Shown here piece after piece: positions 53,533 to 53,895 of a DNA stretch of 55,352 nucleotides. Position 1 is the first letter of the stretch, and each line of letters starts with the position of its first letter. The notes beneath the pieces were generated by a model. It did no database searches. It was not told where the DNA came from and saw only the letters and a program-made list of their open reading frames with translations. A program made the position numbers and the translations under genes. The DNA is from Pseudomonadota bacterium (GTDB taxonomy: Bacteria > Pseudomonadota > Alphaproteobacteria > Rhodobacterales > Rhodobacteraceae), in contig JBCDAQ010000001.1 of NCBI GenBank assembly GCA_039185285.1, positions 1 through 55,352 on the forward strand, read 5' to 3'.

Positions 53533-53652
53533 GGCGTGGCTTTCGTTGCGAAGAAGCAGTCGTCCCCACCCGCGATCAGCGGCCTGTGATCATAGCTACA
53601 GTCGTTGCGCGCGATCCGTGGCAAGATCGCCCTGCTAACTCGGGAGGGTTTC

Positions 53653-53895
53653 ATGGCGACTGAAGACGAAACAACGAAAGCAGAACTGGCAGACACTGAC
53701 TTGGATGCGGCGCAGGCCGGGTCTTCACAACCATCCTCGAATGGCGGTTTCAGCGATATCTCGGGGCTTGGCGCCGAGGTCACGATCGCGGAACATCGGT
53801 CGGGCGGATCGAGATGGAATGTCTTCACCGCCGATCTCTTCAACGAGCCTCATGCGACGAATACTGACGCGAGCAAGAAGTCGCTGAAGGACTAA
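53653..53895 (+). CDS. 80-aa small protein with double-glycine-like leader and mosaic C-terminal segments
   Basis: SD GGGAGGG at 53642-53648 before the ATG; leader ELADTDLDAAQAG; fills an otherwise empty intergenic space. Confidence 0.75.
   Translation: MATEDETTKAELADTDLDAAQAGSSQPSSNGGFSDISGLGAEVTIAEHRSGGSRWNVFTADLFNEPHATNTDASKKSLKD

What the first reader, a model, noticed from the sequence alone, without database searches (positions are those of the whole stretch)
53653..53895. Leader-peptide microprotein built as a mosaic of fragments of unrelated conserved proteins (candidate new system)
Seen: an 80-aa ORF with a good SD: MATEDETTKA-ELADTDLDAAQAG | SSQPSSN | GGFSDISGLGAEVTIAEHRSG | GS | RWNVFTADLFNEPH | ATNTDASKKSLKD. 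Known: EL(S/T)DxxLDxVxGG/AG is the double-glycine leader signature cleaved by C39-peptidase ABC exporters and used in RiPP precursors. The cargo is not a Cys/Ser-patterned RiPP core. By my recognition it is two short blocks joined by Gly/Ser linkers, one resembling a contractile tail-tube protein and one resembling the GH5 catalytic strand. No modifying enzyme or exporter is adjacent. Inference: a member of a dispersed family of exported peptides in which a constant leader displays captured or mimicked epitopes of other proteins, for example decoys or assembly poisons against contractile injection systems or phage tails, or a variable peptide library. The mechanism is speculative.
Basis: partly seen in the sequence, partly recalled or inferred. 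Interest (0 to 1): 0.9.

Follow-up and report, generated by a model that had tools for sequence, protein, structure and literature searches.

The report
Exported peptides stitched from protein fragments
This small gene is one of about 40 in the genome that join a shared export tag to shuffled scraps of unrelated proteins, mostly parts of bacterial injection machines; the peptides are likely secreted by one dedicated transporter and may act as decoys, a design I could not find described.

Summary
Confirmed, and larger than flagged. The 80-aa ORF is one of 41 dispersed 50-105-aa ORFs in this genome with a double-glycine-type leader. Its two blocks match a contractile-injection tube protein and the GH5 acid/base strand; each match is weak alone. 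Family-wide the signal is clear: 7 of 41, 10 of 88 and 5 of 31 cargos hit Pfam at E<=0.01 (control 0 of 43): Hcp, VgrG, tube, sheath, PAAR-like, AAA, DUF1559, FG-GAP; one cargo joins EF-Tu and GroEL pieces. Blocks recur in new combinations, are conserved as protein (dN/dS about 0.28) and differ from host genes; one orthologous pair has swapped its block. All 12 of 61 congeners with an NHLP-type exporter carry the leader; the family also occurs in Sphingomonadaceae, Rhodospirillales and a myxobacterium, often beside the exporter. Many members, including this one, share a CRP-type promoter. About 10 of 129 members sit by tailoring enzymes; this one does not. Export is inferred (0.8); decoy or interference function is my best guess (0.4), untested. 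The scan earlier noted similar fragment mosaics on other DNA, with other export signals. No paper found.

The parts
53585..53600 (+). Palindromic TGT-N10-ACA site (CRP/Clr/NtcA-type geometry), centred at the -41.5 position relative to the -10 element; shared by many family members
   Evidence: a matrix trained on four other genomes scores it 13.1 bits, reached by 0.24% of 1646 control upstream regions. Regulator identity inferred.
53622..53627 (+). Predicted -10 hexamer (CAAGAT) at the family's fixed 21-nt spacing after the palindrome core
   Evidence: Column profile of 58 sites shows T/A...T at this offset; coordinates
53642..53648 (+). Shine-Dalgarno GGGAGGG
   Evidence: Sequence
53653..53895 (+). 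80-aa precursor ORF (P0001)
53653..53721 (+). Double-glycine-type leader, aa 1-23; predicted cleavage after Ala-Gly
   Evidence: cleavage inferred from the known PCAT rule
53743..53808 (+). Block 1, aa 31-52: fragment of an eCIS/gp19-type tail-tube protein
   Evidence: recurs in L164
53815..53853 (+). Block 2, aa 55-67: GH5 strand ending in the NEP acid/base motif
   Evidence: the role of the NEP glutamate is established knowledge

Best explanation
The ORF belongs to a dispersed, co-regulated family of small genes that each join a constant double-glycine-type leader to a patchwork of short conserved pieces of unrelated proteins, and the peptides are likely cleaved and exported by the genome's NHLP-type transporter, where they probably act as mimics (decoys or interface blockers) of proteins met outside the cell, above all contractile injection and type VI machines. 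Shown: the family, the mosaic cargos, the shared block vocabulary, conservation at protein level, block swapping at one locus, co-occurrence and frequent adjacency with the four-gene exporter (HlyD, C39-ABC, second ABC, cNMP-binding protein), and the shared promoter motif. Inferred: transcription under a CRP-family activator (0.7), cleavage after Ala-Gly and export (0.8), origin of blocks from foreign DNA by in-frame short-patch recombination followed by exchange among mosaic genes (0.55), and mimicry as the selected function (0.4).
For: 41 members in G000, 89 read from four congeners. Pfam E<=0.01: 7 of 41, 10 of 88, 5 of 31, against 0 of 43 spurious ORFs; 13 of the 17 hits are Hcp, VgrG OB, gp19, sheath or PAAR-like. 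EF-Tu 115-131 followed by GroEL 100-121 in one 39-aa cargo (E 9.6e-4 and 0.017). 169 shared cargo 6-mers against 1.1 in shuffles; identical residues use the same codon only 406 of 727 times between genomes; pooled dN/dS 0.28 over 9 orthologous pairs. L009 and L070 are the same locus, 104 of 115 nt identical through leader and first block, then an Hcp piece versus a GroEL piece, 35 of 89 nt. Blocks differ from the host's GroEL, Hcp, tube and sheath. Genus-wide: 12 of 61 genomes have TIGR03794, all 12 have the leader; 47 have neither; the 2 leader-only genomes are 62% and 75% complete. 5 of 5 distant genomes found through a leader+DUF1559-block pattern carry TIGR03796, and leader ORFs lie next to the exporter in 4 of them and in G207. 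C39 Cys/His/Asp residues are present. Promoter motif in 14 of 41 G000 members versus 0.43% of controls, with the matrix trained elsewhere.
Against: No expression, cleavage, secretion or binding data. P0001 itself has no homologue and no counterpart beside 18 related PEP-mutase genes, none of them syntenic, so selection was not measured on this gene. Its block 2 was found behind no other leader. Most cargos hit nothing (34 of 41, 78 of 88), and only conserved motifs can be recognised, so the bias towards injection-system pieces may be partly ascertainment. Several donors (EF-Tu, GroEL, HU, GH5, AAA ATPase) are not obvious targets for an anti-injection decoy. dN/dS pairs were picked by protein similarity, which favours low values. 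Congeners are not independent. Three same-order genomes have a TIGR03796-type transporter and no leader hit. The exporter operon lacks the promoter motif in 8 of 8 loci.
Confidence: 0.45

Rival explanations
1. A prochlorosin-like RiPP library: the ORFs are precursors modified in trans by tailoring enzymes, and captured fragments are simply the raw material for variable cores, with no mimicry of the donors.
For: Same leader type and exporter as NHLP/Nif11 RiPPs. About 10 of 129 members are directly followed by candidate tailoring enzymes: a PAD-fold protein behind Arg-repeat cargos in 4 genomes, radical SAM, 2OG-Fe(II) oxygenase, PrmA-like methyltransferase, CxxCxxCC protein. A methyltransferase follows the exporter-adjacent ORFs in G368 and G371.
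Against: 118 of 129 cargos have no Cys; LanC-like genes in 2 of 16 and YcaO in 6 of 16 carrier genomes, neither found in G000 (75.7% complete). Most mosaic members stand alone. Raw material would not be expected to keep donor reading frame, fixed block ends and donor residues across phyla.
Confidence: 0.22
2. The exported peptides are signals or cues: fragments that imitate lysis products or attack by injection machines and are read by receptors of neighbours, predators or a eukaryotic host.
For: Donors include abundant, conserved proteins (EF-Tu, GroEL, HU, Hcp, tube, sheath); class II bacteriocin-type leaders also export peptide pheromones (recalled); shared CRP-type promoter suggests a coordinated response.
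Against: No receptor, two-component system or immunity gene recurs beside members. No direct evidence.
Confidence: 0.15
3. The peptides are matrix or adhesion material: short beta-strand blocks and repeats that self-assemble after export.
For: Many blocks are single strands of beta-rich polymers, and several cargos are tandem short repeats. Similar blocks occur in a longer protein with an N-terminal signal-like segment (P0074).
Against: Other blocks come from helical parts of EF-Tu, GroEL and DUF1559 (recalled structure); 40 different sequences per genome are not needed for a fibre.
Confidence: 0.12
4. Neutral debris: decayed gene fragments that fused to a leader and persist without function.
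For: Rapid turnover; P0001 has no homologue; host range is patchy (14 of 61 congeners; 1 mosaic carrier among 300 class-wide genomes).
Against: Intact frames, Shine-Dalgarno sites, conserved promoter, dN/dS 0.28, host-like GC3 (0.67 against 0.66), recurrence of the same blocks in distant taxa.
Confidence: 0.06

Closest known systems
NHLP/Nif11 RiPP precursors with the TIGR03794/03796/03797 exporter (Haft et al. 2010, PMC2887384; passages read)
   Same: Same three-gene exporter; Gly-Gly leader end with acidic and Leu pattern; constant leader, hypervariable cargo; paralogous expansion.
   Different: Leader is about 20 aa, without a nitrile-hydratase or Nif11 domain (one myxobacterial member, L133, has a longer Nif11-like leader by my reading); cargos are not Cys/Ser/Thr-rich cores but pieces of other proteins; most have no tailoring enzyme.
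Prochlorosins (PMC10783134; search listing and start of abstract only)
   Same: Many precursors per genome, one shared processing machine, unknown function.
   Different: No ProcM/LanM partner in most carriers; almost no Cys; variation comes from recognisable foreign blocks.
Class II bacteriocins/microcins and CTB-family bacteriocin-like peptides (NF038167, PF28158)
   Same: Short double-glycine leader, probably unmodified cargo. Weak leader-level similarity: NF038167 E 0.018 for one member, Atlas feature score 0.84.
   Different: Below curated cut-offs; no immunity gene recurs; no amphipathic killing core seen.
T6SS Hcp/VgrG/PAAR and eCIS tube, sheath, ATPase and DUF4157 proteins
   Same: Source of most recognisable blocks.
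   Different: Only 10-40-aa pieces, from different subfamilies, dispersed, behind an export leader; cannot form a tube. G000 has no full-length Hcp, gp19 or sheath in the assembly.
[quoted passage not shown]
   Same: Inserts 3 to about 100 bp of heterologous, also foreign, DNA at microhomologies: the size of these blocks.
   Different: A rare mutation process shown in Acinetobacter; only a candidate origin here, untested.

Membership tests
PCAT substrate with double-glycine leader | N-terminal leader of pattern ELxDxxLDxAxGG ending in GG/GA/AG | tested here: met
   P0001 ends AG
PCAT substrate with double-glycine leader | Cognate C39-ABC transporter with HlyD in the genome | tested here: met
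   Single C39 hit; TIGR03796 926 bits and TIGR03794 294 bits, both over cut-off; co-occurrence
PCAT substrate with double-glycine leader | Cleavage after the motif and secretion | not testable with these tools
   Needs peptidomics
NHLP or Nif11 precursor | Long nitrile-hydratase-like or Nif11 leader domain | tested here: not met
   No NCBIfam or Pfam hit of that kind for P0001; leader is 23 aa
Lanthipeptide / prochlorosin | Cys plus Ser/Thr core and a LanM/LanC enzyme | tested here: not met
   P0001 has no Cys; 118 of 129 cargos have none; no LanC-like gene found in G000, 2 of 16 carriers have one
TOMM / linear azole peptide | YcaO cyclodehydratase linked to the precursor | tested here: not met
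   None found in G000 (75.7% complete), 6 of 16 carriers have a YcaO somewhere; none adjacent to P0001
RiPP in general | Post-translational modification of the core | tested here: inconclusive
   No adjacent enzyme for P0001; about 10 of 129 members have one; trans-acting enzymes not excluded
CTB family bacteriocin (NF038167) | Score above the curated cut-off of 32 bits | tested here: not met
   No hit for P0001; 15.2 bits for 1 of 4 full-length members tested
Class II bacteriocin / microcin | Antibacterial activity and a linked immunity gene | not testable with these tools
   No recurrent small neighbour was looked for below 100 aa; activity needs an assay
gp19/eCIS tube protein (PF06841) | Full domain above cut-off, in a sheath/baseplate operon | tested here: not met
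   24 of 134 profile positions, 14 bits against a cut-off of 28.2; no operon
GH5 glycoside hydrolase (PF00150) | TIM barrel with two catalytic glutamates | tested here: not met
   13-residue piece only
CRP/Clr-type regulon | TGT-N10-ACA palindrome at class II spacing from a -10 element | tested here: met
   differs from the published Clr-box TGTT-N8-AACA at position 4
CRP/Clr-type regulon | Binding by a named cNMP-dependent regulator | not testable with these tools
   Three Crp-family HTH genes over cut-off in G000; one has a site upstream

The most novel reading that the evidence does not exclude
Bacteria from at least two phyla keep a genetically encoded, recombining library of short conserved epitopes taken from foreign injection machines, pili, adhesins and abundant housekeeping proteins, display them on a constant export leader, switch them on together through a cyclic-nucleotide regulator, and secrete them as decoys or dominant-negative blockers: an exported molecular-mimicry arsenal whose vocabulary is also shared with larger secreted mosaic proteins.
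Probability: 0.35. Interest if true: 0.95.

Novelty: categorically new. Interest (0 to 1): 0.86.

Why it matters
The leader and exporter are known; the cargo design is not, as far as my searches reach. It shows new functional genes being built from 10-40-residue pieces of unrelated proteins and kept by selection, a directly testable case of gene birth from short segments. It gives candidate substrates for NHLP-type exporters that have no annotated precursor or tailoring enzyme. It warns annotators: such ORFs are already labelled 'Hcp' or 'bacteriocin-like' in databases. If the peptides block injection-system assembly or act as decoys, they would be a natural library of inhibitors and a new layer of interbacterial defence. 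Named Sphingopyxis and Bradyrhizobium records carry members, so the test is feasible.

Tried and rejected
Direct homologue search with P0001 found only itself; the Atlas gave leader-level leads under 0.9 only. PHROGs added little. Complex prediction of the mature cargo with a congener's eCIS tube gave no verdict; it is no evidence either way. No RNA holder listed. tblastn of all 129 cargos against G000 found no donor gene at a convincing level; groEL was not found in G000 and tuf in none of the five assemblies searched, so the EF-Tu block could not be compared with the host. A loci search with alignments A3 and A4 could not run for lack of a conserved stretch; the leader+DUF1559 DNA pattern covers only one block, so the taxonomic range is a lower bound. 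No recurrent neighbour gene or flanking repeat marks the family as a mobile element; downstream k-mers mostly reflect tandem members. The sigma-70 consensus and terminator scan found nothing. Six of seven class-wide leader hits were ordinary RiPP-like or other ORFs by my reading. The regex block counts (69 of 129 with a block, 28 with two or more, 41 injection-system type) use patterns chosen after seeing the data and are descriptive only. Paper searches that found no description; one search was swamped by unrelated words and one search returned nothing. Subscription journals and supplements were not searched.

Full report
1. Observation. The ORF at 53653-53895 (+) encodes the 80 residues quoted, with GGGAGGG before the ATG. 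It lies alone between a PEP-mutase-family gene and a convergent CoxL-like gene. The DNA comes from a 4.0-Mb, 75.7% complete assembly, G000, held in a marine metagenome run. P0001 has no homologue of similar length in 5.8 billion proteins. Block 1 (aa 31-52) matches Pfam PF06841 at E 0.042 and residues 30-51 of an eCIS tube protein of congener G005, with only 41 of 66 bases identical; that tube is homologous to solved eCIS tubes. Block 2 (aa 55-67) has a GH5 endoglucanase as best PDB hit, 10 of 13 identical, E 0.017; its pattern occurs in 63 metagenome loci, 62 in long frames, 4 of 4 tested being PF00150. Alone, each match is borderline.

2. The family. A leader HMM finds 37 ORFs at 17.9 bits or more, reversed decoys reaching 9.3; I added 4 weaker ones by eye, giving 41 ORFs of 50-105 aa on 29 contigs. 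Four congeners gave 89 more; 129 were analysed together after dropping one cut by a contig end. Leaders end GG (103), GA (15), AG (8) or other (3); 118 cargos lack Cys; cargo GC3 equals the host's.

3. Cargos are mosaics. Scanned without leader, 7 of 41 G000 cargos hit Pfam at E<=0.01: Hcp three times (profile positions 9-41, 29-68, 97-126), VgrG OB, DUF1559, RTX, AAA. One cargo is EF-Tu 115-131 followed by GroEL 100-121. In congeners 10 of 88 scanned hit: Hcp (3), VgrG (3), sheath, gp19, PAAR-like, AAA. In six distant genomes 5 of 31 scanned (of 41 read; 9 near-duplicates and 1 false hit left out) hit FG-GAP, eCIS core, Hcp and DUF1559. Of 43 spurious ORFs from the window none hit at that level. 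The control is not composition-matched.

4. A shared, selected, shuffled vocabulary. The 129 cargos share 169 six-residue words against 1.1 in shuffles; part of this is orthology. Identical residues use the same codon only 56% of the time between genomes and 47% within. Nine orthologous pairs give pooled dN/dS 0.28 (pairs picked by similarity). L009 (G000) and L070 (G008) are the same locus, 104 of 115 bases identical through the leader and first block, then diverge into an Hcp piece and a GroEL piece, with the switch just after a shared Ala-Ala. Sheath and VgrG pieces are joined in L045 and L063, sheath and GroEL pieces in L062. P0001's block 1 reappears behind the leader in a myxobacterial genome (L164). 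The three GroEL blocks have Ala where the three host GroELs have Met; Hcp, tube and sheath blocks differ from host genes in G002 and G005. The blocks are therefore old, foreign and exchanged, not fresh copies of host genes. Short-patch illegitimate recombination of 3-100 bp is a known process of the right size; its role here is inference from one junction.

5. Exporter. G000 has one C39 transporter, in a four-gene cassette: TIGR03794, TIGR03796 (both over cut-off), TIGR03797 (669 of 709 bits) and a cNMP-binding TIGR03896-like gene, the same four genes in four congeners with no tailoring enzyme shared. This is the NHLP exporter of Haft et al. 2010. Across all 61 genomes of the genus, 12 have the HlyD and all 12 have the leader; 47 have neither; 2 incomplete genomes have the leader only. 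Kin are not independent, but the exporter falls in two groups 65% identical at different loci. A leader+DUF1559-block pattern found 6 loci: two Sphingopyxis, Polymorphobacter, Rhodospirillales, a Polyangiaceae, and L132, which has the same ORF as G207 and is not counted twice. The five tested have TIGR03796, four over cut-off, and leader ORFs lie beside the exporter in G368, G369, G371, G372 and G207. Against a strict link: three same-order genomes have the transporter without this leader.

6. Range. A profile of leader+Hcp-end members searched over 1.84 billion representatives returned 211 hits; of 116 short proteins held afterwards, 84 carry the leader (this includes query-genome members). 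One is from Bradyrhizobium; another joins an HU/IHF piece to the Hcp end. In an even sample of 300 genomes of the class, 7 had leader hits and 1 had mosaic cargos: widespread but sparse.

7. Regulation. About 60 of 129 members have a TGT-N10-ACA palindrome, mostly 66-83 nt before the start, followed at fixed spacing by a -10-like hexamer, the class II CRP geometry (geometry from established knowledge). Trained on four other genomes, the matrix marks 14 of 41 G000 members against 0.43% of 1646 controls; P0001's site scores 13.1 bits. It resembles but is not the Clr-box. Eighteen members scored for a second, 40-bp motif. 36 of 129 lie downstream in tandem arrays. The exporter has neither motif. 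These promoters are independent evidence that the ORFs are real genes.

8. Tailoring. About 10 of 129 members are followed by likely tailoring enzymes. LanC-like and YcaO genes are patchy and not found in G000. P0001 has none nearby. The exporter thus seems to serve a few RiPP clusters and many free-standing mosaic peptides.

9. How it likely works. A cyclic-nucleotide-type activator would switch on the dispersed genes; the C39 domain would cut after the leader and the HlyD-coupled ABC pair would export 25-85-residue, largely disordered peptides displaying one to three borrowed motifs. I commit to mimicry, as decoy or interface blocker, at 0.4 because donor identity is preserved by selection and the commonest donors are parts of injection machines that 11 of 16 carriers do not appear to encode as a full gp19 tube (one over-cut-off hit there is itself a mosaic peptide). 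Rivals: RiPP raw material 0.22, signal 0.15, matrix 0.12, debris 0.06. No call tests function.

10. Novelty. Leader and exporter are known; membership of NHLP, Nif11, lanthipeptide, TOMM and CTB families was tested and not met. Paper searches found no description of fragment-mosaic cargos; the library lacks most subscription journals. Earlier notes of this scan describe similar mosaics in a giant secreted protein, an anti-sigma tether and phage Tat-leader genes; they are unchecked leads, and none reports this leader family. Verdict: real, surprising, function open; interest 0.86.

Noticed in passing
G000, upstream of 11-13 members, e.g. L017:686-725, L005:1221-1260: A second, 40-bp upstream motif (GATACAATTGAGAC-N8-GACATC-N5-GATAC), nearly exclusive of the palindrome motif; 14 of 17 genome-wide hits precede members, two strong hits precede other genes (C62, C21). 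The matrix was trained on members. Regulator unknown.
   Followed up: partly
L011:104-1201, L055:2186-3301, L043:2089-3291, L056:674-1738: A Pfam-negative 350-400-aa protein with a predicted peptidyl-arginine-deiminase fold directly follows members with Gly-Ile-Arg repeats in four genomes: a candidate citrullinating RiPP class.
   Followed up: partly
L033, L034 (G002); L022 (G000): Tandem leader ORFs with radical SAM genes; likely ordinary RiPP clusters using the same exporter.
   Followed up: partly
L052, L066: Members ending in an Arg-Pro-Gly-Arg block lie next to a PrmA-like methyltransferase, in L052 also a 2OG-Fe(II) oxygenase.
   Followed up: partly
P0039, P0044, P0042: Full-length Hcp-like proteins with N-terminal signal-peptide-like segments (my reading); two end in the same C-terminal block used by the peptides, so they may be nearer the donors than T6SS Hcp.
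   Followed up: no
P0027, P0028, P0033, P0047: Very large proteins with four to six tandem Hcp-like domains.
   Followed up: no
P0074: 409-aa protein with a signal-like N-terminus that strings together several Hcp blocks and other short motifs: same vocabulary, different export route.
   Followed up: partly
L150:869-2450 (G370): Eight tandem, near-identical leader ORFs ending in Asp-Trp in the myxobacterial genome.
   Followed up: no
L189:3125-3835 and L188:2266-2955 (G000): A Popeye-domain cNMP-binding gene and a Crp-family regulator both have the palindrome motif upstream.
   Followed up: partly
L016:2346-2519, L050, L048: Cargos with a long helical block of unknown donor (no Pfam hit at E<=0.01, only weak PDB hits); its first ten residues recur alone in three other members.
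   Followed up: partly
window:43785-55352: Surrounding genes look ordinary by my reading: ferredoxin, hybrid histidine kinase, MutT, ArgJ, PPIase, SecA, PEP-mutase family, CoxL-like.
   Followed up: no
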